From a virus: DNA of 64,000 bases. The notes under the pieces are model-generated. The model saw only the letters and a program-made list of their open reading frames with translations, was not told where the DNA came from and did no database searches. The stretch lies in IMG/VR virus record IMGVR_UViG_2537562001_000004; one strand, written 5' to 3'. The position numbers were made by a program, and so were the translations under genes. Shown here piece by piece: positions 2,610 to 56,950 of the stretch (its first letter is position 1; every line of letters begins with the position of its first letter).

Positions 2610-3600
2610 CCAAGGAATTGGTTCTTATTTTAATTACTAAATATGCCTCGGGTGAAGCGATTAATTTGTAATAACTCACAATGATAATAAATTAGTTAAC
2701 AACTAACGAGGATGAGAGGGGTTTCCTCTCTTTAAGGGTAATAAGAAGAACGGTGGGCAACTCGAGTCCCCTTAGTAGGTTCCTGCCTTTAAAGATGGGA
2801 AAACATTGGAAATATCGTTCACCTAAGGAACGTACATATACAATTGAGATACGAAAGAGGAGGAAATGCACATTTCCGATCTCTTTGAGTCTACAAAGGT
2901 TCTAGTCACTCATTCAATCCCCCCTTTTTTTCTTTGCAGGCTGAAAAAGGTAAGTTTGTAGGGGATGAAAGTCTAAAATATATTTTAACTCGTCAGTAAT
3001 ACGTGAAATATCAGACCTCGAAATACTACTGTTAGTTGATCTGGAAGTTCTCCTTGCAGAGAGAAGCACGAATAAGCGTTATTTTTATCTGGTTAATAAT
3101 TATTCTTTGAAAAGAGAATACGTTTTATGGGAATTGGTGACAAATTCATCATAGCGTGCTCATTATAATAAACTTTACTCGGTGACGCGGAGGTTAGAGG
3201 GGATAGGAATTCCGCGAAAAGAAATGTGTTTTTTGTCAATAGATGAAAATTTAGAAGAGTTTTTAAAATAGATATAGGTGATTATACATCTTCATTATTC
3301 TAAAAAACAGATTTCGTTTCTTACAACGCTGCTGTACGTTGAAAGGTGTGGAAACACCAAATTCAAGTGAAGATTTATTTACCAACAATTTAATATTTTA
3401 TGCTGACTTGGAAGGAGTTTCCTTCCTTTGAGCGTATGGCAAGGTGATATTGAAAATCCTAATTCAAATTCATGTACCTATTCTTTTGCTGTACGTTGAA
3501 AGGGATGGAAAACACCCAATTTTCTTTTCCTGTTTATTTCTGAAAGACCTTATTTTGTTAATCAAGATAGGGTCTTTCCCCTGTTTTAAGAATAGTCATT
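2610..3600 (+). ncRNA. Copy A of a large modular structured non-coding element. Modules are M1 (about 2676-3090), M2 (about 3090-3300), a half M3 (3328-3359), a full M3 hairpin module (3410-3516) and a terminator-like hairpin (3548-3590).
   Basis: It is conserved with copies at 12792-14295, 19215-20340, 47222-48100 (-) and 56070-56950 (-). It contains many short perfect hairpins (ggaaatgcacatttcc; agtctacaaa paired with tttgtaggct; ggaaggagtttccttcc; ggtgtggaaacacc). There is no conserved ORF: a 31-aa ORF with a ribosome-binding site exists only in this copy. Confidence 0.6.
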
Positions 3601-5289: not shown

Positions 5290-6765
5290 TTCACTTTTTT
5301 GAATTAAGCGGCTTGATTATCAGACATGGTACAATTGTAAACGACACCTAATATATCAAAGATCGTTTTTTTATCATATCGATGAGATTTCCACCCATTT
5401 TGCTGTAGGAGATTGAACAGGCGAAGTAACACCTTTGATAGCTCTTGGGTGTTTTGTATAGTTTGGAATAGAAGAAGAAAATAGTCTTTAATCATATATA
5501 TGGCTTTATACTCACTAAGCTCTCGTTTTTTCTTCATGAGGAGCAATTGGCGCATTTGAAACATGATAGAAGAACAGAGTAGAATGGCAATCAATTGACC
5601 ATATAAATGGCACTCCAATCGTTCTGGTTTTATCTTTTTACAATGATGGATTTGAAAGAATGACTTCCACGTTTTAAATAAAATTTCGATTTGCCAACGC
5701 AAAGAATACCAGTCATGTACCTGTCCCATCGGGACAATATCTGTAGGGGTGTTTGTCATATATACATTGATACCACTGAGCCGTTTACTACGAGGAGAAT
5801 ACTTCATTCCTTTCTTTTTTTCTCTTACAGCTTGATCTTGTAATCGTTTTTGTTGCTGTTGTTTTGTTAATCGGTGAATAATTACACGAGCTGGCACTTT
5901 ATCAATCATTCCTACTAAGCATCAGCTATTTCACATGTTTGTCCTGGTTGAAGGGAGCTCATTAACGTCTCCATATCTATCTGTATATACTCTGTACCTT
6001 TCGTAATTCTTCCGTTTTGAAAATAATTAGGGTTAGGATTTTTTTGATACATACGTGTATTCGACTTGATACGAGAGATATAGTAGGCCTCTTTATCTTG
6101 TATATATTGAAGGTCTTTTAAATGAAAATAACCTAAATCTCGGATGCATAAATCATTCGCTGTCACAGTTGGGGCACACAGAGAGCCGTAAGTGCGATCA
6201 TGTTGTTTACCTGGGCCTGTATGAATATGTAGGAACTGTCCACTTAACAAATCATACTCAAGTTGAATTTTTATCCCAGCTGTATGGCTGCACCCTCCTG
6301 CACCTGGATAAACCGATGAAAATACATCTGGGAGTTGAAATGCAGTTGAATCTAAAATACGAATACGCTTGAAAACAGAAGTGTATGGAGAAGAAATCGG
6401 CATAGATGTGGCCAATTTTTTGCTTAGTAGTTCGGCTAGTAGGCGTTGTAAAAGTTGGACGGCTGCCTTATTAAATCGTTGATTCAGTCCCTCAGGACTG
6501 ATAAGTACTTCTGTTGATGCTTCTAAACAGCTAGATAACTGAGTTAAAGAAGTCATAGCTACATTTTGGCTCACCCATACACATAAAGCTACTAAATCTT
6601 TTGCTTGGTACTTACTGGTTCGTTGTACAAAACCAACATCTCTAGCAAGATCCCGTAAGGTATTTGGAGATAAAAAACTTTGAATCTCTTGAGCAAATAG
6701 TTGTAATTCGTCAGACACAGAAACAGACATAAAAAACGCCATCCTTTCCTATGATTCTACAAAAA
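5290..6765 (-). mobile_element. IS4-family (IS231-like) insertion sequence. Its transposase is split by a stop or frameshift near 5910.
   Basis: ORFs 5915..6742 (275 aa) and 5304..5909 (201 aa) together make about 477 aa. The C-terminal [12 protein letters not shown] motif is typical of IS4-family DDE transposases. The element ends were not mapped. Confidence 0.6.
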
Positions 6766-12791: not shown

Positions 12792-14295
12792 GGCTCTTTA
12801 ATTTTGTTTAAATGACTAAGAACAACTAATTTGTAACTACTCACGATAATTAATAATTTGTTAACAACTAACGAGGAGGAAATGACGGCGGGTGTCGCTT
12901 TAAAGGTTGTGTATAAATTCCCGGGCTTGTAGCGGGATCTCTACACATTTCCTATCTCTTTGAGTCTACAAAGGTTTCAATCTTCTTTTCCCTTGTAGGC
13001 TGAAAGGGGTGAAAGGTCAGTAGCGTGTGAAATTCTAAAATATAGTTAATTTGTTAATAATACGTGAAACCTGAAACCCAAAACTCAAAATTCCTACTGT
13101 TAATTGTTCGGGAGTTTCTCCTAGCAAAGAGTAACGCGGATAAGCGTTATTTATTGTCTCATTAATTAAACGATGGTCAATATAAGTTCTTTGAAAAGAA
13201 AATCTGGGGATAGCGTGCTCATTAAAACAACGTTACTCTGTGACGCGGAGGTTAGAGGGGATAAGAGTTTCCCGGAAAGAAAGTGTGTATTTTTCGGTGT
13301 TAAACGAAAAATTAGAAGTGTTTTCGAAATTGATGTATGTAAAAATATAGGGCTGGATAACAACTCCACAAGACATATTACTTATCGAACGATATCAGGG
13401 GAAGGGTTTCCCTTCCTTTGAGCGTACAGCAAAATGAAATAATACACGATGATTGAAGGCAACTTGCTGTGCGTTGAAAGGTGTGGAAACACCATCCCTT
13501 TTTTGCAAAACAAACTGTATTTATAATTACATTTTTCTGATAGAAAGCTTTGTTTCCCTAAGACAGAGGTTTTTATCATTTGAGAGTAACTAATTAGTTG
13601 CTCATTTTTTTATGTTTTTTTCATCAATAGATGAAGAAATAGCAGCGTTTTCCAGCTGGATATATGTGATTATATAAGCGTGAATAACAATCTATACATT
13701 CACTTTAAAATTCATGTTGTTGGGAGGGTTTTCCCTTCCTTTGAGCGTACAGAAAAGGTTAAGATTCTTATGTATCCGTCTATCAATCATCTTACCGTTC
13801 GTCCTGCTGTACGTTGAAAGGTGCGGAAAACACCATAAAGAAGGTTTGTTACATTGTACTCCTGATAAAGTTTATGCTTGATAAAAAGTCCTGTTTCTAG
13901 ATTGGAGAACAGGACTTTTTGTTTTATTACAATCCTTTATATAACAAGGTGTATAGTGAGTTCCTCTGATTGTTACAGTGGTTGGTACTAAGTAAGAGTG
14001 ATCAATTGGTTTCTACTTTTTCGTTAATAGATGAAAAAATAGAAACGTTTTCGAAATAGGCTTACGTAATAATATAGGTGTGGATGCGCTTCCACATTTT
14101 GTTTGAATCACATATTGTTGGGAAGGGTTTCCCTTCCTTTGAGCGTACAGCAAAATTAAACGGTTCCCTTCAGTTCCTTCACTGATTCTGCTGTACGTTG
14201 AAAGGTGTGGAAACACCATCCCTATTGTGCACATTGTAATATAATCTGATAGAAAGCTCTGTTTGTATAACAGGGCTTTCTATCGTTTAAGAGCA
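12792..14295 (+). ncRNA. Copy B of the large structured element. It has M1 (12792-13130), M2 (13130-13370) and three M3 hairpin modules (13398-13494, 13722-13836, 14120-14219). Each M3 is followed by a terminator-like hairpin (13538-13575, 13873-13915, 14252-14285). The third is also followed by a box motif at 13945-13990.
   Basis: Same module order and sequence as copy A. The M3 units repeat at about 330-400 bp spacing with partial M2-tail repeats (cgttaatagatgaaaaaatagaaacgttttcgaaa) between them. The loops differ between units. Confidence 0.6.
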
Positions 14296-18723: not shown

Positions 18724-18797
18724 TGGACCTTGTAGGACTCGAACCTACGGCCGAACGGTTATGAGCCGTTTGCTCTAACCAGCTGAGCTAAAGGTCC
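18724..18797 (-). tRNA. tRNA with anticodon CAT (Met or lysidine-Ile2 type)
   Basis: The reverse complement ggacctttagctcagctggttagagcaaacggctcataaccgttcggccgtaggttcgagtcctacaaggtcca folds as a cloverleaf with a 7-bp acceptor stem and a CTCATAA anticodon loop. A terminator hairpin lies downstream and a conserved R4 promoter-like region lies upstream at 18798-18990. Confidence 0.85.
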
Positions 18798-19214: not shown

Positions 19215-20340
19215 TATAACGTAAGCTACAGGAACTTACATATACAATCGAGACACAAACAAGAAAGGGATAGGAAATATACATTTCCTATCCCTTTGAG
19301 TCTACAAAGGTTTCACTCATTCAATCACTCCTATTATCTTTTTGTAGGTTGAAAAAGATAATAGGTCAGTGGCGTATGAAAGTCTAATAAAAATATCAAA
19401 CCGTCAATAATACGTGAAATATCAGACCTCGAAATACCACTGTTAATTGATTTGGGAGTTCTATTTGCAAAAAAATAGCGTAAATAGGCATTATTTTTTG
19501 TTGAATTAATTAGTCGACAGTCAATTAGTGTTCATTGAAAAGAAAATATGTTTCATGAGATATTGTGTTCATTATAATAACGTTGCTAGGTGATTCGGAG
19601 GCCAGATGGCATAAGAGTTTCTCGAAAAGAAGATGTGTTTTTTCGTCAATAGATGAAAATTAGAAATATTTTCGAAAGGTGTATTTGTGTTATGTTTTAG
19701 GTGAGAATAGTCATGTGAAAGATGTCTATTCTAATTCAAGAATGTTTAAGGGCCACACAGAGGTTATCTTAAGTGTTTTTGACGACAATTTAATATTTAT
19801 GCTGACTTGGAAGGGTTTTCTCTTCCTTTGAGTGCACAGCAAAACGAATGTATCCGTTTTGCTGTGCGTTGAAAGGTGCGGAAACAACATAAACATTATT
19901 CACTACATTATGGTTTCTGATTTGATAAGAAGTCCTATTTTCTAAATTGGAGAGCGGGGCTTTTTATCGTGTATACAATATCTCATATACAGAGGCGAAT
20001 AGTGAGTTTCTTGAACAAAAAAACGCTTCTATTTTTTCGTTAATAAACGAAAAAATAGAAGCGTTTTCGAAAAACATTTCTGTAATAATATAGATGTAGA
20101 AGAAAAATTTACAATAACATCCTAAATTTCTTTGTTTTCGTAGGGAAGGTTTTCCTTCCTTTGAGCGTACAAAAAGCCAAGGAAAAAAGGCGATTTTGCT
20201 TTGCTGTACGTTGAAAGGTGCGGAAAACACCAAACTAGGGCAGCTTACTGTTTATGATACTTTATCAATGTAATAAATTTATTAAAAAGCCCTATCATTC
20301 ATAAAGATTAGAATGATAGGGCTTTTGGTCACTTAAGAGT
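19215..20340 (+). ncRNA. Copy C of the large structured element. M1 is truncated at its 5' end. There are two M3 modules (19809-19888 and 20143-20231) and terminator-like hairpins (19920-19965, 20285-20328).
   Basis: Same module order. The first M3 has a short loop of about 20 nt. A box motif is present at 19975-20010. Confidence 0.55.
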
Positions 20341-26085: not shown

Positions 26086-27201
26086 TTATTTTTTTCCTAT
26101 TCTCCCCAAACTATCTTTAATAGTGGTTTCCCCCAGTTGAGTGTATAATAAAGCTGTATCTTGACTAGTATGCCCAAGTTGCTGCATTACTTGTAACGAG
26201 TCTTTTTCTTCCATATATAATTTATTTGCTAATGTATGTCTTAATTTATGAGGAGACATTCTTTTTCCGAATGATTTAGTATATTTTTCTACTATATCCT
26301 GGATAGCCCTAACCGAAAGAGGTTGTGCAGTATGTTTATATTTCGATAAAAATACATTTTTTAATTCTTTTCTTGGAGCATATTTGCTATCTCTAATTTC
26401 CATATATTTTTCAAGATCATTCAATGCAATTGGGGTAATCCATACTGAATCTTCTTTATTTCCTTTGCGGATTACATCAATTAGTCTTTCTTTTAGGTTT
26501 ATATCCTCCATACGAAGATCGGCTAATTCACTTACACGAATACCACTACCAAGAAAGAGGGAGAGGATAGCTACATCACGATCTTTATCTCTTAGGAAAT
26601 AGAACAACTGATGTTTTGTTAAAGATTTTTCATGTTCGTACTTAACGTAATTCAAAAATTCTTGATCGTCATCATTATGGAATATTTTAGATCTCATACG
26701 TTTCGCACGAGCATTTAATGTTTCTTTATCTTTATGTATTTCTATTTTAGCCATGACATTTCTATAAAAATAACATTCTCCATCATCATTTTCTGATAGG
26801 GAGGTAAGGTACTTAAATAAAGACTTTAAGGCCGAAATTTTTCTGTTAACAGAGGAATTCTGCATGTTTTGTTGTAGTTTTAGAAACCTTATAAAGTTCT
26901 CAACATCTTTTTTCTTTAAATTCTCCAAATCAGAGAAGGATATGTCTTTTATGGGTTTCAATTCAATAATTTGTTCAGATAATAACCAATTAAAGAAGAC
27001 TCTGAAATCATATACATAATTCAGTAGGGTGGAGGGAGAGGCATCATGCAATTCTTTGTACTCCACAAATTCTTCTATGTAAAAGGGCATTTCATTTAGA
27101 TTTTCGTATAATTTCTTACGATGTACGGATTTTTGACGTTGCTTGCTGTAATCCATAAAAATCACCTCATCTATACTATAACAGAAAAAACACACGAACA
27201 C
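26086..27201 (-). CDS. Tyrosine site-specific recombinase (integrase), intact
   Basis: A 371-aa ORF. The C-terminus has a catalytic R..HxxR..Y arrangement (KLRHTLANKLY...LGHTSQDTALLYTQ). It lies in an AT-rich island (23600-29500). Confidence 0.7.
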   Translation of the reverse strand: MFVCFFCYSIDEVIFMDYSKQRQKSVHRKKLYENLNEMPFYIEEFVEYKELHDASPSTLLNYVYDFRVFFNWLLSEQIIELKPIKDISFSDLENLKKKDVENFIRFLKLQQNMQNSSVNRKISALKSLFKYLTSLSENDDGECYFYRNVMAKIEIHKDKETLNARAKRMRSKIFHNDDDQEFLNYVKYEHEKSLTKHQLFYFLRDKDRDVAILSLFLGSGIRVSELADLRMEDINLKERLIDVIRKGNKEDSVWITPIALNDLEKYMEIRDSKYAPRKELKNVFLSKYKHTAQPLSVRAIQDIVEKYTKSFGKRMSPHKLRHTLANKLYMEEKDSLQVMQQLGHTSQDTALLYTQLGETTIKDSLGRIGKK

Positions 27202-31630: not shown

Positions 31631-31736
31631 CAATTATGGAGTTTGAATTTCAAAAAAATTATAGAATTAGTTCCTACGTTAAGGGGAATTTAAGCAAAAA
31701 AGGAACTCAATAGATTGTTTTTTTCATTAACGGACC

Positions 31737-31810
31737 TTTAGCTCAGCTGGTCAAAGCAAACGGCTCACAACCGTTCGGTCATAGGTCGAATCCTACAAAA
31801 TCCATATAAC
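31737..31810 (+). pseudogene. Degenerate tRNA(CAT)-derived pseudogene
   Basis: ggacctttagctcagctggtcaaagcaaacggctcacaaccgttcggtcataggtcgaatcctacaaaatcca. The acceptor and T stems are broken and the anticodon has mutated to CAC. Confidence 0.55.
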
Positions 31811-32531: not shown

Positions 32532-33258
32532 CTAATCAATAGTAAACTCTAAACCTTTAGTTACAATTCCAGCAATGTCTTCATCCGCCCAAGAAGGTTT
32601 TGAATAGAATCGTAATTTCTCCACCTTAAAAACAACACGTTTACCTGCTACACTACTTGAAGGTGGAACTGATGACCCACTATGATTACCAGTAAACCAC
32701 TCTAAAGGCTTATCACCATTTAATAGATTCATATCAACATCTCCTAGTATACCTGCCATTTTCCCTTTATTTGTATACTGCCAAAGATCACATGAGAAGT
32801 CTGGCTTCACTTGTGGTGTTCCGTTATTTGTTCCATAGCGCGGAATCCAAATAAAGTCAGCTTGGTACACTCTGTAAATTATATTTGTTGTATAAATGAT
32901 GTGAGACATAAAAGTCCACTTTATACCCAGTTGCTCTGCATGTGTTAATAAAAAACTGCGAAGCCTTTACTGTATGATCTTCCACATCTAAGACTAAAAA
33001 CTTCACAGCAGGATCTATTCTCGATAAGAAGTCTTTCGCTTCTACAATTGCGTCACTCACACTTACAAAACATCCATAAGCATAATGTCCAAACGGAATG
33101 CCGTAGGCTTTACATCCCGTAATGTTTCGTTGATATTTACGGTCTATCAGATTACTTCCATATTGCACAAGAATAATAGTCATTTTGATGTATTGATGTG
33201 CAACACTCCAATCAATGTCTTCATTATGATGTGATAAATCTACGATTGTTTTTTTCAT
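32532..33258 (-). pseudogene. Phage endolysin, GH25 muramidase plus SH3b, frameshifted (ORFs 32857..33258 and 32532..32909 overlap)
   Basis: DLSHHNEDIDW and GIPFGHYAYG (GH25). The C-terminus is SH3b ([28 protein letters not shown]). The two ORFs sit in different frames. Confidence 0.75.
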
Positions 33259-34090: not shown

Positions 34091-34728
34091 CCATCACTCT
34101 CCTTTTCACAAAAAATAGAGAAATCATTTGATAACTCTTACTTAGCGCCAGCCACCGTAACGATTAGAGGCACTCACTATACGTCTTGGTATATGAGATA
34201 TTACATAAAATAAAAAGCCCTGTTCTTCAATTAAAAAAACATGGCTTCTTATCGGAATTGCTTATATTATTTTATGGTGTTTCCACACCTTTCAACGTAC
34301 AGCAGATTGTGAGTCAATTCCAAATAGTGAGCGCCGGTTTTTTGATACTATCTCGCTATACGCTCAAAGGAAGAGAAATCCTTCCCCGTATATGAAGTTG
34401 CTAGTGAAGGCGCAAATTCATTTCCAACACTTGCATTATCACATAAAGCTATTCCCAAAAATGTTTCTATTTTTTATTTATTGGCGAAAAAACAGGTCTT
34501 CTTCCAGACCCCTTAATCATCTGATTACTTTTGATATAGAAAAACCCCCAATCATTTTGAGTCTTTAGAATGATTGGGGGGGTGAAAAAAACAGAGAGTT
34601 TATATAAAATGGGAACGTTATGAATGTTATATCCACTTATTCACTCTCAAACTTCTTCCAATCGCTAAATACCATATATTTAAACATTAGTAATTAATCG
34701 GAAGAATACTCGGGTAACTGTGAACCCG

Positions 34729-34833
34729 TGGTGTTTTCCGCACCTTTCAACGTACAGCACGAGAGAGGAAAATATTTCTTGAAAGGTGCATCTATTAACC
34801 TTGCTGTACGCTCAAAGGAAGGGAAAGCCTTCC
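34729..34833 (-). ncRNA. Isolated M3 hairpin module, reverse orientation. A partial M2 lies at 34900-35040.
   Basis: ggtgttttccgcacctttcaacgtacagca-[loop]-tgctgtacgctcaaaggaagggaaagccttcc. Confidence 0.5.
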
Positions 34834-34958
34834 TATTCAGCGTAAAATATTAAATTTTCAACAAGAATACTTAAAATAACCTCCGTGTCATCCTCAATTA
34901 TTCTCACTTAAAAAATATCACAAACACAGCTTTAAAAATACTTCTGTTTTTTCGTATA

Positions 34959-35832
34959 TCAGAGAAAAAATACACCTTCTCCTCGAGGGACTTTTATCCC
35001 CTCTAGCCTCCGCGCCACTGTGTAAGTAGATTGAGTGTGTTGTCTTTTGATCTCTTTTTGAGTTGGTTCTGTATCTTCATGTAACCAATCAGGGACAATT
35101 TCTATTCGTTTTCCATTGTTTCCCCTCGAGTATTCTTTTCTTTGTTTTTCCCTTTGGAATCGGGCATCTATTGCTGCAACATCATCTAGCATTTTTACTG
35201 TCTCTCTTTCCCAATTTTTCAAAATAACATGTACGTATCCCCATTTCAGCGCATTTTCATCCACCGCTTTATTAACTGCATGCTCAATTAACTGACTGCC
35301 AAACAGCATACAAAATCTTTGTAACTTTTCTTCAGCCTTTTTACTTAGAGCGATTTTTTCCCTTTAAAATAGTCACGGGCTATTTTATATTCTTGTTCAA
35401 TTGATTTTTGAGATAATGGATTATCGTCATCATGATAATGATTAGTATTTAGTAGTATGGGACTTTCCTGTCACTAGATTTTCCACTGGTGGAGAATGCA
35501 CCCAGTGGCTCCACTTGCGGAACTTCATGAATTACTGTTTCCCCACTAATAATTTTGTTGTTATCATTTCTGATTGGAATGCGTCGTAAATATCTATATT
35601 CTTTTAACTCCTTCATGCCACTTCTCAAACTATCAACACCATCTTTCGCATGGGTAGCTAGCTCATCTCGATAAAACATCCAATCATCTGGAGGAGTAAG
35701 GATATATGCTAAAATCCCTTTTGCCTTCCATGAAAGTCTTTCATCTCTTAAACCGGTATTATTTACGACAGAATAATTTTTGTTCTTTTCCACTCTTACA
35801 ATTCCCATATTCCCTACCTCTCCTGTTTGCAC
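34959..35832 (-). pseudogene. Phage replication initiator (winged-helix N-terminus plus DnaD-like C-terminus), frameshifted. The palindrome gaacccgctgcagcgggttc lies upstream at 35877-35896.
   Basis: ORF 35449..35832 (LSWKAKGILAYILTPPDDW) and ORF 34959..35309 (NALKWGYVHVILKNWERE) are in different frames and are separated by about 140 bp. Confidence 0.55.
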
Positions 35833-39679: not shown

Positions 39680-39753
39680 CGGACCTTTAGCTCAGCTGGT
39701 TAGAGCAAACGGCTCATAACCGTTCGGTCGTAGGTTCGAGTCCTACAAGGTCC
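39680..39753 (+). tRNA. tRNA with anticodon CAT (Met or lysidine-Ile2 type), intact
   Basis: ggacctttagctcagctggttagagcaaacggctcataaccgttcggtcgtaggttcgagtcctacaaggtcca. The acceptor GGACCTT pairs with AAGGTCC. The anticodon CAT is at 39714-39716. No CCA is encoded. A conserved upstream R4 region lies at 39452-39679. Confidence 0.9.
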
Positions 39754-41400
39754 ATAAATACCTTGTCATTCACATCAACTTGACAAGGTATATACTAAGA
39801 AGTAAAATAACTATCCGTGTAAAAACTTGGTTTATACACTCCATTGTGAAAGATCGGGTTAACACCAACAACTTTCATGACATTCTTAATTGTGTTTATC
39901 AAGGATGTACATCAGAGCGGTTTAACAAGTGGTAATAACGAAAGAGATAGGGCTCTAATATAGTTAACAATTTGCGTGAACTGCATTACTCAAAATGACA
40001 TCTAAACAAACAACAAAAAGACATCTTCAACTGGGGAAGATGTCTTTTTTATCAAAACTAAAAACCAACATTTTTTCCTTTGAAAAAGAAAAAATATATC
40101 ATTTGAATTTTCATTTCACACATATAATATACTTAGACGTTCCGAACTTCTAAGTCAAAAATCACCTTATCGCAATGGGATTTTTTTAAAAAAGCGTTTT
40201 ACAGCGGACCATAAAATAAAAAAGAAGCCTCCACCATCATATTCTAATGACAGTGGAGGCTTCTTTTTTGTGTGTAAATCTCAACAGTCTAGAATCATAC
40301 ACTTTAGGACATAACGGAAGAACAAAAACTGGGAGAATTCATTCTAAATACATCGACTTGTAACTATAATCTCATAAATCCAACACGAAAAGCGATTTAT
40401 TATTTCCTTTAATAAAAGAAATAATAAATCTCCGTAATTCCGAATGTAGTTATATACTAACATTATAAATTTATTTTGACCTACTTTTGTTTTTGTAATG
40501 TCATGACATACATTGTTTGATTAGGATTCGCGCCTTTTCAAACAACAAAAAATCCCCGAAACTCACACAGAGCATCGGGGATTTTTCTATGATTCTTGAG
40601 GAAATCATTTAATCACCATTATAATCTCATAAAATACATCGTTAAAACTATATGAAATTTCCTTTAATACAGAAAAACAAAGTATGGTTTGGCCATTATG
40701 CTGTGATAAGCTTTAAGTGCATACATAAAAAGTTGGAATAAGCAATTAAGATGTCTGATTGGGAAACGAACATCTTAAAGAACCTCAGCAACAGAAAAAG
40801 CCAGAACTCAAATTGAGTCCTGGCTTTTTTACATTTATACAATCACATAGAAAAGGCTCCCAACCGTACAATTGGGAACCTTCCGAGGGAGAAAAATAAT
40901 ATAGATAAAAATAAAGTATATGTCAATTCCAATAATGGATTCATAAATATCATCTCACAAAAGTATCATCTAAGATGATTGAAATTTGCCTTTATATGAG
41001 AAAATAAAGATTTCTAATTCTAAAGATTCTATGATGTATTTTGTATTGCAAAGACGGGAATTGACATCTAGTACCGTGACACGAAGAAAGAGCTTATTCT
41101 CATGTGGAGATTGGGCTCTTTTTTATTTCGTAAGGTTATATAACAAAAAGAGCCCTCAACAGTTTTGTTGAGGGCTCTCTAATTAGGGTATACAGAAAAA
41201 AGAAACACATGACATACATTCAATCGCATCATCTCACAAAAACAACATTCAAAATGATTGAAAATTTCCGTTAGCCCAGAAAAAAATAGTACCCCTATAC
41301 ACTAATGCATTATGATAATATTTATTTGACAATCGCAGTCACAGAAAATGTATGTTTACGGATATTTATAAAAAAAGAACCAGAACTCTTCCCCTTGAAG

Positions 41401-43831: not shown

Positions 43832-44140
43832 TCAAATCGAAGTATCTCTCGATAAAATCCAAAATAAAAAGACTTCTTCTTTAGAAACCTTTAGTAGATT
43901 GATTGTATAATTCAATTCATTTTCATCTTGTAACTTTTCTTTCACTTTATCTAATGACATCCTCTTACACTTCCTAGTGTTCACGCAGTTCCTAACTTGG
44001 CAGTAACGCCAATAAGAATACTTTCTAAACTGATTCAACATATCTCTTTCATAAGAAGTTCGTTCTTTCTTCTCAGCATATTGAATCATTAAGTCCGTAT
44101 CGAATGTCCAACTACTATCAGTAATAATCATATCTACCAC
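43832..44140 (-). CDS. Hypothetical phage protein downstream of HNH, possibly the 5' part of a packaging gene cut off by the IS at 43796
   Basis: A 102-aa ORF that ends about 35 bp before the IS boundary. Confidence 0.3.
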   Translation of the reverse strand: MVDMIITDSSWTFDTDLMIQYAEKKERTSYERDMLNQFRKYSYWRYCQVRNCVNTRKCKRMSLDKVKEKLQDENELNYTINLLKVSKEEVFLFWILSRDTSI

Positions 44141-44448
44141 CGCTCTTCATTCATGAACTTAGGTTTCTTCTTCTCAACCTTATCTAACCGATCATGCACT
44201 TCGTTATGACAACGGATGCACAGACATTGTAAGTTATCCAAGTCTAATACTAACTCTGGATGTGTCTTCACTTCCTTCATATGATGCACATTCTCAACAG
44301 GTCTGTACTTTCCTTTTGACTTACACATCTGACATTCATAGTTGTCACGCTTCATTGCTTCTTGTCTTAGTGCTTTCCATTCTTTTGATTTATAAAACTT
44401 CTGGAGTTTGTTCTCTTTAATGAGTTGAATCAGTTCATGGATTTCCAT
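44134..44448 (-). CDS. HNH endonuclease, phage packaging-associated
   Basis: CQMCKSKGKY..VHHMKEV...NLQCLCIRCHNEVH, the zinc-finger HNH motif. It sits in the usual position before terminase genes. Confidence 0.75.
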   Translation of the reverse strand: MEIHELIQLIKENKLQKFYKSKEWKALRQEAMKRDNYECQMCKSKGKYRPVENVHHMKEVKTHPELVLDLDNLQCLCIRCHNEVHDRLDKVEKKKPKFMNEERW

Positions 44449-44459
44449 ATTTCAAATAC

Positions 44460-45017
44460 CTATTTGTATAACCTATAAACAAAACAATCTACAAAAGCAC
44501 CTTTGCACTTTGGGCAAATCTTCCCATCGAAATGTTCGTCTTTCATTACTTCTACTTTATCTGCATATCCACAGCATCCACACTTATAACGTGCATTGCC
44601 GCTCTTTAATGAACCCTGTTGAATTGCATCTGCTGTTAGATATTCCTTCGTAACATAGCGTTTATTTGCCCGTTCTTCATTAACAAACCCTTGCCCAATA
44701 ACCTCCAAGATACCATTAAATGCTTTATTCAATTCTGTAGCTATGGTTCGCAAAACTTTAATTGCTTTTTTGATATCTTCTTTCTTTTCTTCTTGTTCAG
44801 GTGTCATATCTAAAATATGACCATATTCCTTTTTCAATTCTTCAAATTCTTTCTTTGATTGATTCGATCTTTCGTTTAACAATTGCAATTGTATCCCGTT
44901 TTGTCTTGCAATTTCAGAACTTGTTTCAATATTCATTCGAATCTGTTTCCTCAAAACTTCTTGCTCTTTAATCCAAGCGTTCATTTGACGTACATATATT
45001 TCATGTTTATTCATCAT
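44460..45017 (-). CDS. Phage protein with an N-terminal coiled coil and a C-terminal C4 zinc ribbon (hypothetical)
   Basis: A 185-aa ORF with YKCGCCGY...CPKCKG. Pseudogene copies exist at 4070-4650 and 20870-21060. Confidence 0.5.
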   Translation of the reverse strand: MMNKHEIYVRQMNAWIKEQEVLRKQIRMNIETSSEIARQNGIQLQLLNERSNQSKKEFEELKKEYGHILDMTPEQEEKKEDIKKAIKVLRTIATELNKAFNGILEVIGQGFVNEERANKRYVTKEYLTADAIQQGSLKSGNARYKCGCCGYADKVEVMKDEHFDGKICPKCKGAFVDCFVYRLYK

Positions 45018-45238
45018 TTATCGCTCCTTTGTTTTATAGCCTTCAATTGCTCCATTTCCTTCTCGACCATCCTTTTAACATCACGTTTTTCACGAATCAC
45101 TTTGATAATGTCAACCATCCAATTTGTACAACTTGATACCAGAATGACAAGGAATATAATGGACAATATTTCTCCCATCCCACCACTCTCCTTTTCACAC
45201 AAAAATAGAGCAACCAAACGGTTACTCTTGTATAGCAA
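45014..45238 (-). CDS. Small single-transmembrane protein, probably 54 aa starting at the ATG near 45178. Resembles a type I toxin or holin.
   Basis: The ribosome-binding site aaaggag lies 8 nt before ATG GGA GAA ATA. MGEILSIIFLVILVSSCTNWMVDIIKVIREKRDVKRMVEKEMEQLKAIK. Paralogs lie at 45981..46202 and 47001..47198. Confidence 0.55.
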   Translation of the reverse strand: MLYKSNRLVALFLCEKESGGMGEILSIIFLVILVSSCTNWMVDIIKVIREKRDVKRMVEKEMEQLKAIKQRSDK

Positions 45239-45299: not shown

Positions 45300-45610
45300 T
45301 AGATGTTTGCGCCCTAGTCTGGTGTTTTCCACACCTTTCAACGTACAGCAGAATCAGTGCAGGAACTGAAGGGAACCGGTTAATTCCGCTGTACGCTCAA
45401 AGGAAGGGAAACCCTTCCCATGTCTTGGGTAAATTAATTTTGTGAAGTTGCGATCCACACCTATATTATTCCATAATCACCTTTTTGAAAACGCTTTTAT
45501 TTTTCATCTATTAACGAAAAAACACGTTTTCTTTTCAAAGAACTCTTATCCCCTCTAGCCTCCGCTTCACCGAGTAACGTTTATTATAATGGGCACGCTA
45601 TGTTCCTTCT
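45300..45610 (-). ncRNA. M2 partial (45480-45600), M3 hairpin module (45321-45419) and a terminator (45239-45285) leading the small transmembrane-protein gene at 45178
   Basis: ggtgttttccacacctttcaacgtacagcag-[loop]-gctgtacgctcaaaggaagggaaacccttcc. Confidence 0.55.
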
Positions 45611-45980: not shown

Positions 45981-46202
45981 TTATCGCCTTTTCGAATGTT
46001 CGATAAAGTATCCTTCACCCTTTATCGCTTTCAATTGTTCCATTTCCTTCTCGACCATCCTGCTAACAGCACGCTTTTCACGAATCACCTTGATTACATC
46101 AATAATCCAACTTGTACAACTTGATGCCAAAATACTAACGGATATAATAGACAGTATTTCTCCCATCCCACCACGCTCCTTTTCGCATAAAAAATAGAGC
46201 AA
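45981..46202 (-). CDS. Small single-transmembrane protein paralog (true start probably near 46166)
   Basis: MGEILSIISVSILASSCTSWIIDVIKVIREKRAVSRMVEKEMEQLKAIK. A box motif lies at 46212-46290 and a terminator at 46291-46337 upstream. Confidence 0.55.
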   Translation of the reverse strand: MLYFLCEKERGGMGEILSIISVSILASSCTSWIIDVIKVIREKRAVSRMVEKEMEQLKAIKGEGYFIEHSKRR

Positions 46203-46377
46203 CCCAATAGTTGCTCTTAATTAACACCAACCGCCGTAACGATTAGAGGAACTTACTATACGTCTCGGTATATGAGATAGTTCGTATACAAAAAAGCTCT
46301 ATTGTTCTGACCCTTAAGAACAAACAGAGCTTTTTTGCAATTGTGCAATATATAAGAAATGACACCGATATTTCCCT

Positions 46378-46905
46378 GGTGTTTCCGCACCTTTCAACGT
46401 ACAGTAAAGTATGGGAGAAGGCATGTTAGGATACCTTTTAACTTTACTGTACGCTCAAAGGAAGGGAAACCCTCCCAAATCAGCATATGACATATTTAGT
46501 TGTTATTAAGAACATTTAAATCAGCTTGCACCATCAATAAATGCTCTTACTCCAAGGTCGATGTGGTAAATCGACTATCTACCTCCCTATAATCACATAT
46601 ATTCACTTTGAAAACACATCTGTTTTTTCATCTATTAACGAAAAAACAAACTTTCCTTTCAAGGGAACTCTCTATACGTCTTGGCATGTGAGCGCGACAA
46701 AAAGTCCTGTTCCCTAATCCAGAAACAGAACTCCCTATCAAATTAAGAATAGATGACAGCAATATGCGTTCGAAAACCCAATAAGCCTTTGGTGTTTTCC
46801 ACACCTTTCAACGTACAGCAGATTAAGTGAGGGAACGGATTTAGGGTACCTGTTAATTCTGCTGTACGCTCAAAGGAAGGGAAACCCTTCCCCGTATATG
46901 AAGTT
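46378..46905 (-). ncRNA. Two M3 hairpin modules (46378-46475, 46791-46890) with an M2-tail and box (46580-46700) between them
   Basis: Module 46378-46475 carries the compensatory pair caacgtacagTAaagt paired with actttActgtacg, where other copies have cagCag paired with ctGctg. Confidence 0.55.
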
Positions 46906-47000: not shown

Positions 47001-47198
47001 TTAAAAGAGCAACCATGCATCAGTTGCCCTTTCGTCGATTTCCTTCTTCAACGACTTATTCATATCACGTTTTTCACGGATCACTTTGATTATGTCAATA
47101 ATCCAACTTGTACAACTTGATACCAGAACGACAAGAAATATAACAGACAGTATTTCCCCCATCCCATCACACTCCTTTTCGCATAAAAAATAGAGCAA
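47001..47198 (-). CDS. Small single-transmembrane protein paralog (true start probably near 47162)
   Basis: MGEILSVIFLVVLVSSCTSWIIDIIKVIREKRDMNKSLKKEIDE. An M3 module (47294-47408) and terminator (47222-47256) lie upstream. Confidence 0.5.
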   Translation of the reverse strand: MLYFLCEKECDGMGEILSVIFLVVLVSSCTSWIIDIIKVIREKRDMNKSLKKEIDERATDAWLLF

Positions 47199-47221
47199 CC
47201 AAATGGTTACTCTTCAACGAC

Positions 47222-48100
47222 AAAAAGCCCTGTCTTGGGTAAACAGAGCTTTCTATCAGAAAAAAGTTATTACATATACTACACAATAGGGACGGTGTTT
47301 TTCTACACCTTTCAACGTACAGCAATTTTTTTAATGTGAGCACTACGATTGATTTTTCAATGTCAGTTTTGTTTTGCTGTACGCTCAAAGGAAGGGAAAA
47401 CCCTTCCCCATAATATGATTTTAAAGGTAAGAACAACACGTAAGTTGGCTACTTACACTTATATTTTTACACATATTCATTTCAAAAACGCTTCTGATTT
47501 TTCATCTATTAACGAAAAAACACGTTTTCTTTTTGAGGAACTCTTATCCCCTCTAGCCTCCGCGTCACCGAGTAACGTTATTATAATGAGCACGCTATCC
47601 CACGAAACGTATTCTCTTTTCAAAGAACACACTTATTGAACACTGGTTAATACGTACTAACAAAAAACAACGTAACAAAACGTTGCCTCTTGCATAGATA
47701 ACACCCGATCAATTAACAGTAGTAATTGAGGTTTCAGCTTTCGCGCATTACTGACGAGTTAAAATGTTTTAGACTTTCATACGCTACTCACCTATTACCT
47801 CTTTCAGCCTACAAATGGAATGGATAACGATTGAATGAGTGATTGGAACCTTTGTAGACTCAAAGAGATAGGAAATGTGTATTTCCCACTCTTTCGTGTT
47901 CAGTCCAGTATATGGATGGTTTCCCATCTTTAAAGGTATTCACCTTAAGTTGCAGTGCGAAATTCCAACTTAAAACAATCCCCTTAAAGAGAGGAAATCC
48001 TCTCCTCCTCGTTGGTCGATAACTAATTTGTTATCATTGTGAGTAATTACAAATTAACTGCTCGGCTTGAGATGTTTAAACAAAATAAAAGAGCCAACAG
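47222..48100 (-). ncRNA. Copy E of the large structured element, reverse orientation. M1 is at 47690-48100, M2 at 47450-47640 and M3 at 47294-47408. It lies directly downstream of the intact ArpU gene.
   Basis: The reverse complement aligns along its full length with copies A and B. Confidence 0.6.
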
Positions 48101-48231: not shown

Positions 48232-48600
48232 CTAGTGCATATGCCAATCTTCTAAACGCTCTAGCTCGTTTGTTATAGTATGGTGTTTTTCCAGCCCTAA
48301 CTTTTGGGACATCACAATCCAGTTATGCTCTTTTGATTCCACATAACCTTCACGTATAATTCTTTGCTCTTGTACGTTCAATGCATTCTCTATCGCATCT
48401 TCAAAATCTTTGATGTATTCGTATCGTTTTCTCTTTTTTTCTGATACCTCAAGACCATTTTGGATATCTTCCCGATCTCCCTTTGTAACGCTTAGCAAAT
48501 ACAGCCGATACTTTTCTAATGCTTGATGTACATTAGCCTTTGTAGCTTCCATATCTAACTCAGGAATTTTAATATCAAGCATTTCAATCCACTCCTGCAT
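48232..48600 (-). CDS. ArpU/RinA-like phage late transcriptional regulator, intact
   Basis: A 122-aa ORF whose C-terminus (QRIIREGYVESKEHNWIVMSQKLGL) resembles a sigma-70 region-4-like helix-turn-helix. Pseudogene paralogs lie at 2140-2575 and 56990-57436, each followed by the large element. Confidence 0.5.
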   Translation of the reverse strand: MQEWIEMLDIKIPELDMEATKANVHQALEKYRLYLLSVTKGDREDIQNGLEVSEKKRKRYEYIKDFEDAIENALNVQEQRIIREGYVESKEHNWIVMSQKLGLEKHHTITNELERLEDWHMH

Positions 48601-53179: not shown

Positions 53180-54760
53180 CTTTTTAAGCTTCGCCCCTGG
53201 TTTTGCACCAATTGAAGCTATTTGAGATTCATCACAAATTACTTACTTCATAAAATCTTCCACTGTGACGCCTTTCGCTTCTGCATCACCTGTATCCAAT
53301 TTCACTAAAGTAACGTCATTAAATAACAATGGATTAGCTGTAATTGTGTATGCAACATCATCCATAACCATCATTGTTTCTTTATGGGCAACTAAAAAAG
53401 CCACAAATCCATCAATCTTCTTTTTGGACTGTCGGTAATTAAACGCTTTTCATAAATTAGTATTTCTGAATCATCAAGCATTGCATTCATAACGTTTGGA
53501 TACTGATTTACGGCAATACATTCTAAACCGAGATTTTCAAGCTTCTCTATTAACTTTTGAGACATCGCTGGGTCATAGTTTATTTGTTGCACATCGTATA
53601 AACCCATGCATTCAACGATATATTCCATAACTTGATCATGCTCAATCATCTTTCCATCACAAAACGTAGCAAAACCACGTTCAACTATATCGGTATATGG
53701 GACATTGTCCTCTTTTTCTTTAAAATCAATGTTCTCATTAGGAAGGAAATACATCTGTTTAACTTTTATAATCGGCCTTTCTTCGTCATCATGTGAAAGG
53801 GAGTTTAAACTTACACAGGTTAATCTGTTGTTTTAGATAAATCCAATCCTAAATAGCAACCTTCACCTGTAAGGTCACCCAAATCTTCTGCAAGAACATG
53901 TTGTACTTGATCATGCTCAAAATAATTATCAGCACCATTTACGAAAACATTTAAGTGTTTGGAAAGAAACTCAGCTTTTGAATGTGCGGACTGCTTCGCT
54001 TTTTTGAATTCAATCTCAAGTGGCTCCATCGCAACGGAAACACCAATATTCGGGTTAACCATTTCCAAAACTTTACGATCTTCCCAATCATAATTTTTAT
54101 TAGGTTCCCAGATTGCTACAAATAAGGAATCATCATCATTTTCAAGAACAAGTTTCGCATATTTATAAACACGCATACCGACAGATGACGTAACCTTACC
54201 AGCCGTTGAAATATTAAGCATCATTGGTTATTCACGTGAAATCTGAGCTGACTTCAAGTTATCGTACATCTCCATATTTTCTTGCGCATGGGGTTCATCG
54301 TTCAAGACAAAATAAGGGTTCTTTCCTTCAAGCCCCTTAGGGTTTTTCGTTAATACTTTGAATTTATTTTGATATACAATTCCATTGATGCTATATCGAT
54401 ACATAATTAACACCTTTATAAATTTGAGTAGGTTGTGCCAGAGGTTCAGGGTCTTCTATTGCTTGTGCAATTGGTTCAGCTGCGTTTTGCGCTTATTCAT
54501 AGTCTGATGCTGCACAATAACAATCCGCTCCAAGTTCTAGTTCACCATACATAGCATAGAGCAATGCACTTGCTGCAATAATTGTTTTTCCATTCTTCTT
54601 TGGTACTTGAACATATGATTCACGAATAACACGAACGTTTTTTCCTTTTTCGTTTTTATGATACCAACCATACATATTCGCAAAAACAAACATTTCCCAA
54701 AGTTCTAATTCCATCAATTGACCTGCAAGTGGCCCTTTAACATGAAGAATGAACAAAATC
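53180..54760 (-). pseudogene. Phage terminase large subunit, fragmented into at least four ORFs
   Basis: 54493..54756 has Walker A (VPKKNGKT). 53820..54224 and 53392..53754 carry nuclease-domain-like segments (GLDLSKTTD). Frames alternate and stops intervene. Confidence 0.6.
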
Positions 54761-56069: not shown

Positions 56070-56950
56070 GCCCTATTCTTCAATTAAGAAAACAGGGCTT
56101 TTCGCCGGTTTAAGAGAATGTGTTCTACAAAAAAGTTAGCACATTTTCTCGTCTGGTGCTTTCACACCTTTTAAATATTAAATTGTTATAGTGCGAAATT
56201 ATTTTCCGCACCTTTCAACGTACAGCAGATTATAGATGTGAGTGCAAATAATGGTTTTTGATGTCATGTTTATTCCGCTGTACGCTCAAAGGAAGGGAAA
56301 TCCTTCCCTAGAAAAATAAAAAAATCAAGAATATAGGTGCGAAGTTGTCATCCACACCTATATAATCACACATATTCATTTCGAAAGCACTTCTAGTTTT
56401 TCATCTATTAACGAAAAAACACGTATTCTTATCGAGGAACTCTTATCCCCTCTAGCCTCCGCACCACCGAGTAACGTTTTTTAATGAGCACGCTATCCCA
56501 TAAAACGTATTATCTTCTCTAAGAACATTTATTGACCGTTGGTTAATTAATCGAACAAAAAATAACGCTTATTTACGTTACTCTTTGAAAGGAAAAATCT
56601 AAATCAATTTAAATCAATCAAAAACAATTATTAAGGCTTCGGCCTTCACGTATTACTGACGGTATAAAATTTGTTGTAGACTTTCATACACTACTAACCT
56701 ATTACCTTTGTAGGCTGAAAGAGATAGGAAATGTGTATTTCCCCCTCTTGTGTATCGGCACTTCAGTATATGGATAGTTTCTCATTTTTAAAGGTACTCA
56801 CCTTAAGCCATAGTACGAAATTCCAACTTAAAACAATACCCTTATCTTCTTCCTCGTTGGTCGGACCCTTGCTTACGTTTATTCGTGAGTAAACTATAAT
56901 TAATTGCCCTTGCCGAGTGTTTAAATAGAATTGAAAAAAGACATCAATTT
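56070..56950 (-). ncRNA. Copy F of the large structured element, reverse orientation, with an M3 at 56190-56308 and an extra half-unit at 56153-56180. The central M1 stem-loop is collapsed by an internal deletion at about 56700-56730.
   Basis: The reverse complement aligns with the other copies. Where they have ctctttgagtctacaaaggtt[35 nt]tttgtaggctgaaagaggtaat, this copy has only ctctttcagcctacaaaggtaat. Confidence 0.55.

What the first reader, a model, noticed from the sequence alone, without database searches (positions are those of the whole stretch)
46378..46475. Compensatory double substitution keeps the long stem of one module copy intact
In copy 46378-46475 the 5' arm reads caacgtacagTAaagt and the 3' arm reads actttActgtacg. 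Other copies have cagCag and ctGctg. The C-to-T and G-to-A changes sit at paired positions and restore a base pair. This is direct, within-window evidence that the stem is under selection as a structure rather than being a coincidental inverted repeat. The sequence alone cannot tell whether the structure is RNA or single-stranded DNA.
Basis: seen in the sequence. Interest (0 to 1): 0.7.

Follow-up and report, generated by a model that had tools for sequence, protein, structure and literature searches.

The report
Compensated stem in prophage small RNA
The paired C-to-T and G-to-A changes are real, and they are one of several compensated base pairs in a roughly 100-base structured RNA not found in Rfam 15, which has its own promoter-like motif and terminator, is repeated 13 times in this Bacillus cereus-group window, and has no known function.

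Summary
In copy 46378-46476, window bases 46405 (T) and 46446 (A) replace the C/G found in other copies and keep the stem closed. Two more pairs just above are also compensated.

I collected 35 distinct copies: 13 full copies and one half copy in the window, the rest from prophages, plasmids and metagenomes. Four core-stem pairs show double changes, each with a G·U intermediate seen elsewhere. Single changes give 15 G·U against 2 A·C.

It is the gene-sense strand, which is more stable as RNA in 31 of 34 copies.

- 33 of 34 copies have an extended -10 promoter motif upstream.
- At least 27 have an intrinsic terminator within 130 nt downstream.
- No Rfam family matches, and the distribution of copies rules out bcr1-bcr18.
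- There are no target-site duplications and no integron integrase.

The module sits in optional cassettes between the late-activator gene and the HNH/terminase genes of B. cereus-group prophages. It is absent from 77 of 80 prophages that carry the same regulator.

Best reading: a small structured non-coding RNA gene of unknown function. Tests for antisense pairing and for terminator-switch pairing were negative.

The parts
46378..46476 (-). The module copy in the finding. Read on the - strand it is hairpin A (46476-46460), the long stem's 5' arm (46461-46441), a variable apex, the 3' arm (46410-46390) and hairpin C (46391-46378).
   Evidence: nhmmer 46477-46377, E 2.6e-24; RNA MFE -44.1, z -6.5
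46405..46405 (-). A on the - strand.
46446..46446 (-). U on the - strand.
46290..46339 (-). Intrinsic terminator T1 downstream of this copy: AAAAAAGCUCUGUUUGUUCU...AGAACAAUAGAGCUUUUUU.
   Evidence: -16.6 kcal/mol hairpin followed by a U run
46566..46664 (-). Repeated promoter-like element (repeat family D7). It carries the extended -10 TGTGATTAT at 46597-46589 and the palindrome TTTTTCGTTAATAGATGAAAAA.
46186..46217 (-). Second terminator-like hairpin (t_L type, AGAGCAAC..GUUGCUCU followed by U's) just before the ribosome-binding site of the small gene.
45981..46166 (-). Small membrane-protein gene (61 aa, MGEILSIISV...). It has paralogues at 47001-47159 and 45014-45178.
46789..46893 (-). Module copy with C-G at pair 16.
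47293..47408 (-). Module copy.
45319..45420 (-). Module copy.
56203..56309 (-). Module copy upstream of terminase small-subunit and fragmented large-subunit genes.
34729..34835 (-). Module copy.
34274..34387 (-). Module copy.
20143..20233 (+). Module copy in which pairs 15-16 are broken.
19808..19890 (+). Module copy with compensated pair 11 (U-A to C-G) and a short apex.
14119..14219 (+). Module copy upstream of a 564-aa pectate-lyase-like gene.
13721..13837 (+). Module copy in which pair 16 is broken.
13398..13496 (+). Module copy with a U·G intermediate at pair 11.
3409..3518 (+). Module copy with wobbles at pairs 13 and 14 and a compensated pair 7 in hairpin A.
3316..3360 (+). Half copy, holding only the 3' arm and hairpin C.
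48232..48600 (-). ArpU/RinA-like late transcriptional activator gene that heads this cassette region.
   Evidence: phrog_248; TIGR01637, below its cut-off
44134..44448 (-). HNH endonuclease gene, marking the start of the packaging module downstream of the cassettes.

Best explanation
I infer that each copy is its own short transcription unit: an extended -10 sigma-A-type promoter 50-120 nt upstream, then the fold, then an intrinsic terminator 40-130 nt downstream.

The fold has a sequence-conserved 16-bp lower stem with an invariant G·G mismatch and a G·U pair, a variable apex of 20-55 nt, and two small flanking hairpins. The flanking hairpins can alternatively pair with each other to extend the stem.

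These units are accessory cassettes ('morons') placed between the late-activator gene and the HNH/terminase genes of B. cereus-group prophages and their remnants on plasmids. Selection keeps the RNA helix: transitions that leave G·U are tolerated and are later completed to Watson-Crick pairs. The U-A pair at 46446/46405 is one completed case.

Shown: the structure, the covariation, the strand, the promoter and terminator motifs, and the optional cassette context. Inferred: that the RNA is made and is the functional product. My guess is that the conserved lower stem is a platform for a protein or for RNase III and that the apex is lineage-specific. The biological role is unknown.
For: - 35 distinct copies were collected.
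- The count of structure pairs gives 86.7% of cells paired against 34-50% when slid. Six pairs have double changes (reached by 3 of 500 shuffles), and extra pair types reach the observed count in 1 of 500 shuffles.
- RNAalifold independently recovers the stem, with 4 compensated pairs.
- Core stem cells are 388 Watson-Crick, 15 G·U, 2 A·C and 3 other. Hairpin A is 193/8/2 and hairpin C is 117/11/2 (Watson-Crick/G·U/A·C).
- Gene-sense RNA is more stable in 31 of 34 copies, by a mean of 5.6 kcal/mol, Wilcoxon p = 1e-6.
- An extended -10 motif lies upstream on the sense strand in 33 of 34 copies. The same segments read antisense give 11 of 34, the downstream stretch gives 4 of 34, and the window background is 23%. 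The motif occurs in at least three unrelated upstream sequence classes.
- A terminator hairpin plus U run lies within 130 nt downstream in at least 27 copies, against 3 in the upstream control. All 11 terminator-like sites in 44.9-48.3 kb are on the - strand, against 1.8 expected.
- Some cassettes hold nothing except the upstream stretch, the module and the terminator, between two copies of the t_L hairpin (L010-type).
- The module is optional: it is absent from 77 of 80 prophages with the same regulator.
Against: - There are no expression data, and the promoters and terminators are consensus matches only.
- Copies within a class are related, so the counts overstate the number of independent events. 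About 12 wobble events and 7-8 compensated pairs look independent.
- One position (hairpin C pair 5) shows C·A in 17 copies on the proposed strand.
- G·T wobbles also form in single-stranded DNA. In this window the gene-sense strand is also the lagging-strand template.
- No target, partner or phenotype was found. Apex, leader and tail show no significant complementarity to their neighbours.
Confidence: 0.6

Rival explanations
1. The module is a cis-acting leader element for processive antitermination, working like the put RNA of phage HK022 (described from my own knowledge). The nascent RNA would modify RNA polymerase so that it reads through T1 and the t_L hairpin into the downstream small-protein or late genes.
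For: - The module always lies between a promoter motif and one or two intrinsic terminators.
- Downstream genes start 12-25 nt after t_L, which leaves no room for a promoter of their own.
- The lower stem is conserved in sequence, as expected for a polymerase- or factor-binding site.
Against: - 77 of 80 related prophages express the same late genes through the same t_L hairpin without the module, so it is not needed for read-through there.
- In L010-type cassettes the module and T1 are the only cargo.
- There is no similarity to any Rfam family.
Confidence: 0.17
2. The module is an RNase III processing or stability signal inside longer phage transcripts, like the R sites between phage T7 early genes (from my own knowledge). 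The long duplex would be cut or would protect flanking mRNA.
For: - It is a near-perfect duplex of 20-30 bp with a conserved internal mismatch near the base.
- Several copies lie between cassettes in one transcription direction.
Against: - Each copy already has a terminator of its own just downstream and a promoter motif upstream, so processing is not needed to make transcript ends.
- Sequence conservation of the lower stem goes beyond what RNase III is known to need (my own knowledge).
Confidence: 0.1
3. The module is a DNA-level element: a palindromic recombination or insertion site (like an integron attC site, IS200/IS605 ends, or a MITE) that folds as single-stranded DNA. Alternatively, the arms are kept complementary by template-switch 'quasi-palindrome correction' without any selection.
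For: - Left and right flanks assort independently between copies, so junctions fall at or inside the module.
- The cassettes form arrays.
- The sense strand is also the lagging-strand template in this window.
- TnpB genes lie within a few kb in two plasmids.
Against: - There are no target-site duplications (1 of 33 copies against 2 in the control).
- There is no integron integrase. The only recombinase is XerS, and it scores 53.9 on the integron integrase model against a cut-off of 265.
- No recombinase or transposase is consistently nearby.
- The G·G mismatch is never corrected in 34 copies, and G·U outnumbers A·C.
- The promoter and terminator association is unexplained by this reading.
- Whole cassettes, not the module alone, are present or absent.
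Confidence: 0.08
4. The module is the antitoxin RNA of a type I-like toxin-antitoxin pair with the adjacent small hydrophobic protein (the MGEILS... family, or DUF3956 in L003 and L006).
For: Small membrane-protein genes lie next to many copies, either downstream on the same strand in the window or convergent in L003 and L006.
Against: - Leader, apex and tail show no significant complementarity to the translation-start regions (all shuffle fractions at or above 0.095), nor to 1.5 kb on either side.
- Many copies have no small gene nearby (L010, L019, L022, L025).
Confidence: 0.05

Closest known systems
Orphan structured RNA motifs found by comparative genomics in phage and plasmid DNA (the kind curated in Rfam)
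   Same: It is a compact fold with conserved stems, covariation and a variable apex. It is restricted to mobile DNA of one bacterial group and has no known function.
   Different: No Rfam 15 model matches at gathering score, or even at E up to 10. It is therefore not a member of any curated family.
bcr1-bcr18 repeats of the Bacillus cereus group (bcr10 and bcr18 are predicted RNA elements transcribed in 5' UTRs; PMC3446304)
   Same: Both are intergenic repeats of the same bacterial group of about 100 nt and upward, with conserved secondary structure and compensatory changes.
   Different: - Strain FM1 has no bcr4-7 or bcr18 (PMC6542083, supplementary Table S2), yet its plasmid CP009368.1 carries the module.
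- bcr1-3 and bcr8-17 occur in essentially every strain, whereas the module's 20-mer is in only 2 GTDB representative genomes.
- bcr5 is 310 bp long and has no inverted repeat (PMC3184786).
- The consensus sequences could not be read directly.
HK022 put RNA and the lambda pR'-tR' leader (processive antitermination; from my own knowledge)
   Same: A structured RNA lies just downstream of a promoter and upstream of terminators, at the head of phage late or packaging genes.
   Different: - The fold and size differ.
- The module is optional among phages that share the same late region.
- No function has been tested.
Phage 'morons' (autonomous promoter-gene-terminator insertions between phage genes; from my own knowledge)
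   Same: The module is an optional insertion with a promoter motif and terminator of its own, between conserved phage genes.
   Different: In some copies the cargo is only a non-coding RNA rather than a protein gene.
Integron attC sites
   Same: Both are imperfect palindromes with conserved base-proximal arms, conserved mismatches and a variable terminal structure, lying between small cassettes in a single orientation.
   Different: - There is no integron integrase.
- The arms are conserved in sequence rather than only in structure.
- Promoter and terminator motifs flank each copy.
- The hosts are Bacillota.

Membership tests
Any Rfam 15 family | Covariance-model score at or above the family's gathering threshold | tested here: not met
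   Only tRNAs are found in the window. The best hit over a module is 21.8 bits to a plant miRNA model whose gathering score is 80. Ten related loci give only a group II intron elsewhere.
bcr1-bcr18 B. cereus repeats | A distribution that matches a bcr family: bcr1-3 and bcr8-17 in nearly all strains; bcr4-7 and bcr18 present wherever the element is present | tested here: not met
   FM1 has zero bcr4-7 and bcr18 but carries the module on CP009368.1. The module's 20-mer is in 2 GTDB representatives only.
Integron attC / integron cassette array | An adjacent integron integrase (IntI) | tested here: not met
   The only tyrosine recombinase in the window is XerS (451 bits, cut-off 267). It scores 53.9 on the integron integrase model, cut-off 265.
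Integron attC / integron cassette array | Structure conserved while sequence is free, apart from the R''/R' core sites | tested here: not met
   In 34 copies, 16 bp of both arms are nearly invariant in sequence.
MITE / transposable palindrome | Target-site duplications, and empty sites that differ by the element alone | tested here: not met
   Flanking direct repeats occur in 1 of 33 copies against 2 in the control. Presence or absence involves whole cassettes of 0.3-1.3 kb.
Riboswitch / terminator-antiterminator attenuator | Mutually exclusive pairing between the sensor and the terminator arm | tested here: not met
   Apex against the copy's own terminator arms gives -4.6 kcal/mol, and against other copies' arms also -4.6. 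T1 is separated from the module by 30-60 nt of non-conserved sequence.
Type I toxin-antitoxin antitoxin RNA | Base-pairing potential with the toxin mRNA | tested here: not met
   no value beyond the shuffled controls.
Processive antitermination RNA (put-like) | Promoter-proximal position upstream of terminators | tested here: met
Processive antitermination RNA (put-like) | Terminator read-through that depends on the RNA in cis | not testable with these tools
   This needs reporter or in-vitro transcription assays. The absence of the module from 77 of 80 related phages argues that it is not required.
Independent small RNA gene | Own promoter and own terminator around a conserved structure | tested here: met
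   33 of 34 copies have an extended -10 motif and at least 27 have terminators. These are motif-level results only.
Independent small RNA gene | A detectable discrete transcript | not testable with these tools
   No transcriptome data are available here.

The most novel reading that the evidence does not exclude
The module may be a new functional class of phage- and plasmid-borne RNA: a conserved double-stranded scaffold carrying a hypervariable apex, made from its own promoter. On this reading it would act either as a decoy or as a programmable RNA (for example against a host defence or an RNA-binding protein). Alternatively it could be the first protein-independent processive antiterminator RNA in phages of Gram-positive bacteria.
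Probability: 0.12. Interest if true: 0.8.

Novelty: new member of a known kind. Interest (0 to 1): 0.5.

Why it matters
If the RNA is real, this is a structured RNA family I could not find described. It is specific to B. cereus-group prophages and large plasmids, and it sits at the switch between regulation and packaging. It has unusually clean evolutionary evidence for its fold, and 13 copies lie in one 64-kb region.

It gives a defined object of about 100 nt for testing what accessory RNA cargo does for temperate phages in a group that includes B. anthracis and B. thuringiensis. It also flags that the late operons of these phages start behind an intrinsic terminator.

The present finding is mainly a solid structural annotation, not a mechanism.

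Tried and rejected
1. Rfam at gathering and at permissive thresholds found nothing.
2. The GenBank phage collection gave no match to the module, even at E = 1.
3. The variable apex as an antisense guide: the longest complementary runs to 1.5 kb on either side were no better than shuffles.
4. Leader, apex or tail pairing with the start region of the adjacent small membrane-protein gene was not significant.
5. Apex pairing with the copy's own terminator arms (riboswitch logic): own equals others at -4.6 kcal/mol.
6. MITE reading: no target-site duplications.
7. Integron reading: the recombinase is XerS.
8. bcr1-18 identity is excluded only through distribution. The original papers could not be read.
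9. The cos-site idea was dropped, because covariation and strand asymmetry are not expected of a DNA cleavage site.
10. Which of two base conformations forms (three hairpins, or one extended hairpin) could not be settled. They are within about 2-4 kcal/mol in most copies. RNAalifold prefers the extended form, while compensated pairs in hairpin A favour the three-hairpin form.
11. Two viral-collection scans were wasted on over-specified patterns.
12. The first genome-collection scan, with a gapped pattern, found nothing.
13. A first duplex-energy scan timed out.
14. No sigma-A -35 element could be defined by eye or by the consensus scan.

Full report
**The observation.** The + strand at 46396-46411 reads caacgtacagtaaagt and at 46441-46453 reads actttactgtacg. 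The copy 400 nt away reads cagcag...ctgctg. The two changed bases, 46405 and 46446, face each other as the 16th pair of the long stem, counted from its base. The arm motif occurs 25 times in the window against 1.65 expected. nhmmer finds 13 full copies, one half copy and two decayed relics. Among the full window copies pair 16 is C-G in ten, U-A in this one, and broken in two. In this copy pairs 18 and 20 also differ from the neighbouring copy in a complementary way.

**Anatomy and strand.** Genes run the other way in each half, and GC skew flips near 25 kb. Read on the gene-sense strand, the module has these parts:
- hairpin A: GGAAGGG-UUU-CCCUUCC;
- a long stem: 5'-CCUUUGAGCGUACAGC paired with GCUGUACGUUGAAAGG-3';
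- a variable apex of 20-55 nt;
- hairpin C: GGUG-YGGAAA-CACC.

There are no linkers between these parts. On this strand the two conserved irregularities are a G·G mismatch (pair 6, invariant in 34 of 34 copies) and a G·U pair (pair 8).

**More copies.** The window comes from NCBI assembly GCA_000291355.1, contig JH791986.1, a B. cereus-group genome. Pattern scans and BLAST gave 22 further distinct copies:
- seven IMG/VR prophage contigs;
- two GTDB genomes;
- five metagenome contigs;
- six large Bacillus plasmids.

No deposited phage genome carries it.

**Covariation.** On the 34-sequence alignment 86.7% of cells pair, against 34-50% when the partners are slid. Six pairs have changes on both sides, a count reached by 3 of 500 shuffles, and extra pair types reach the observed count in 1 of 500. 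RNAalifold recovers the same stem with four compensated pairs. Each double change has a wobble intermediate in another copy:

| Pair | Double change (copy) | Wobble intermediate (copies) |
|---|---|---|
| Stem 9 | C-G to U-A (L029) | U·G in two copies |
| Stem 10 | G-C to A-U (L024, L112) | G·U (L010, L011) |
| Stem 11 | U-A to C-G (window 19808-19890) | U·G (window 13398-13496) |
| Stem 16 | C-G to U-A (this copy) | U·G (L004, L029) |

The flanking hairpins also show compensated pairs:
- hairpin A pair 6, G-C to A-U (L006);
- hairpin A pair 7, G-C to A-U (window 3409-3518);
- hairpin C pair 4, G-C to U-A (L019);
- hairpin C pair 5, U-A to C-G (three copies).

**RNA or DNA, and which strand.** In the core stem, single departures are 15 G·U against 2 A·C. 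Hairpin A has 8 against 2 and hairpin C has 11 against 2. The exception is hairpin C pair 5, which is C·A in 17 copies and probably belongs to the loop. Gene-sense RNA is more stable than its complement in 31 of 34 copies, by a mean of 5.6 kcal/mol, p = 1e-6. For this copy the values are -44.1 against -37.5 kcal/mol. With DNA parameters the difference almost disappears, -20.7 against -19.1. A template-switch 'correction' of one arm against the other could produce a single double change. It would not preserve the G·G mismatch in every copy, and it would not bias single changes toward G·U.

**Transcription signals.** An extended -10 motif (TGn plus a -10-like hexamer) lies 25-130 nt upstream on the sense strand in 33 of 34 copies. 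The same segments read antisense give 11 of 34, the downstream stretch gives 4 of 34, and the window background is 23%. The motif occurs in at least three unrelated upstream sequence classes. A stable hairpin followed by a U run lies within 130 nt downstream in at least 27 copies, against 3 in the upstream control. All 11 terminator-like sites in 44.9-48.3 kb are on the - strand. For this copy the terminator is at 46339-46290.

**Genomic context.** In intact-sized prophages there is one copy. It lies between a late transcriptional activator gene and a 93-aa gene, HNH endonuclease, and the small and large terminase genes. The activators belong to the sigma-70 region 4/DUF1492 type or the ArpU type, part of the superfamily that activates late operons in phages of Gram-positive bacteria (PMC3753634). 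Of 80 IMG/VR loci with the same regulator, only the three already known carry the module.

Comparison of filled and empty loci shows a conserved stretch after the regulator gene that ends in a terminator-like hairpin (t_L, GGGCAAC..GUUGCUCUUUU). The ribosome-binding site of the first late gene follows it directly. Variable cassettes of 0.1-1.7 kb are inserted there, each ending in another t_L-like hairpin. In one cassette type the only content is about 130 nt, the module and its terminator. In the window the unit [promoter-like repeat D7 - module - terminator - t_L - small membrane-protein gene] is repeated three times between the ArpU-like gene (48232-48600) and HNH (44134-44448). Elsewhere in the window modules precede a pectate-lyase-like gene and terminase fragments. 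The window as a whole is a patchwork of decayed prophage pieces and insertion sequences.

**Mechanism tests.** Three pairing-based mechanisms failed:
- The apex has no better-than-chance complementarity to 1.5 kb on either side.
- Leader, apex and tail do not pair with the start region of the small gene.
- The apex does not pair specifically with its own terminator.

DNA-element readings also failed: there are no target-site duplications, and the only recombinase is XerS rather than an integron integrase. The base of the fold has two nearly isoenergetic forms, three hairpins or one extended hairpin, and these could not be resolved.

**Comparison with known elements.** No Rfam 15 family matches. 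The B. cereus repeats bcr1-bcr18 include predicted RNA elements (PMC3446304), but their distribution excludes identity. Strain FM1 lacks bcr4-7 and bcr18 (PMC6542083 supplement) while its plasmid carries the module. The remaining bcr families occur in essentially all strains, whereas the module's 20-mer is in only two GTDB representatives. bcr5 is 310 bp long and has no inverted repeat (PMC3184786). This exclusion is indirect, because the consensus sequences could not be read.

**Verdict.** The finding is real and its reading is right in substance. The stem is maintained as an RNA helix, on the strand opposite to the one written. The element is best described as a small structured non-coding RNA gene carried as an optional cassette in B. 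cereus-group prophages and plasmids. I could not find it described in the libraries available here. Its function is unknown. The alternatives still open are a cis-acting leader for read-through, an RNase III signal, and, less likely, a DNA-level element.

Noticed in passing
window 26086-27201 (-), with the GC-skew turn at about 24-28 kb: A tyrosine recombinase scores as XerS (451 bits, cut-off 267) exactly where cumulative GC skew peaks and gene orientation flips. The window probably spans the replication terminus (dif region) of its replicon.
   Followed up: partly
L030-L109 about 3440-3535; window 46186-46217, 45197-45228, 47182-47213: A terminator-like hairpin (GGGCAAC..GUUGCUCUUUU) lies 12-25 nt before the ribosome-binding site of the first late gene in nearly all 80 related prophages. 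Late transcription must therefore read through it, which implies an antitermination step that I have not seen described for these phages.
   Followed up: partly
L003 about 5370-5440; L005, L020, L024, L026, L112, L002 upstream of the module: A second hairpin (UAUCAAnAGUAUAUA...UAUAUAYUnUUGAUA) lies just after a TGnTATAGT promoter motif. It shows compensated and wobble changes between loci, so it may be a 5'-terminal stem of the same RNA in this class.
   Followed up: partly
window 45014-45178, 45981-46166, 47001-47159 (-); also about 20.3 kb (+): Tandem paralogues encode a 53-61 aa protein (MGEILSII...) with one hydrophobic helix and a charged tail. It has no Pfam or NCBIfam family. It looks like a type I toxin or a holin, but no antisense partner was found.
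   Followed up: partly
L006 7860-7997 (+); L003 downstream of the module: A 45-aa hydrophobic DUF3956 gene is convergent with the module unit and shares a bidirectional terminator with it.
   Followed up: no
window 45442-45584, 46566-46664, 47440-47582, 56339-56481, 13284-13357, 13611-13684, 14011-14084, 20027-20100, 3223-3296: A repeated 100-130 nt promoter-like block contains the near-palindrome TTTTTCGTTAATAGATGAAAAA and TTTCGAAA. It may be an operator for an unknown regulator. Its 5' part (GCGGAGGCTAGAGGGGATAAGAG) is also conserved.
   Followed up: no
window 18724-18797 (-), 39681-39754 (+), 31732-31804 (+): Two near-identical tRNA-Met genes lie on opposite strands, together with a degraded tRNA-like copy called Val (45.9 bits). 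They are set among repeated segments.
   Followed up: no
window 28028-51171 (repeat family D4, seven copies of 59 nt) and families D11 and D16: Further intergenic repeat families were seen, for example ATCATCTCACAAAA..ATCATCTAAGATGATTGAAA, which has an internal palindrome. They are unrelated to the module and remain unexplained.
   Followed up: no
window 53392-54224 (-), 34959-35309 (-), 32857-33258 (-): The large terminase gene is split into two ORFs, and there are truncated DnaB/D-like and GH25 lysin ORFs. The prophage pieces here are decayed, yet the modules within them remain intact.
   Followed up: no
L003 1435-1531: A group II intron domain (Rfam RF00029, 58.5 bits) is present in a module-bearing prophage contig.
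   Followed up: no
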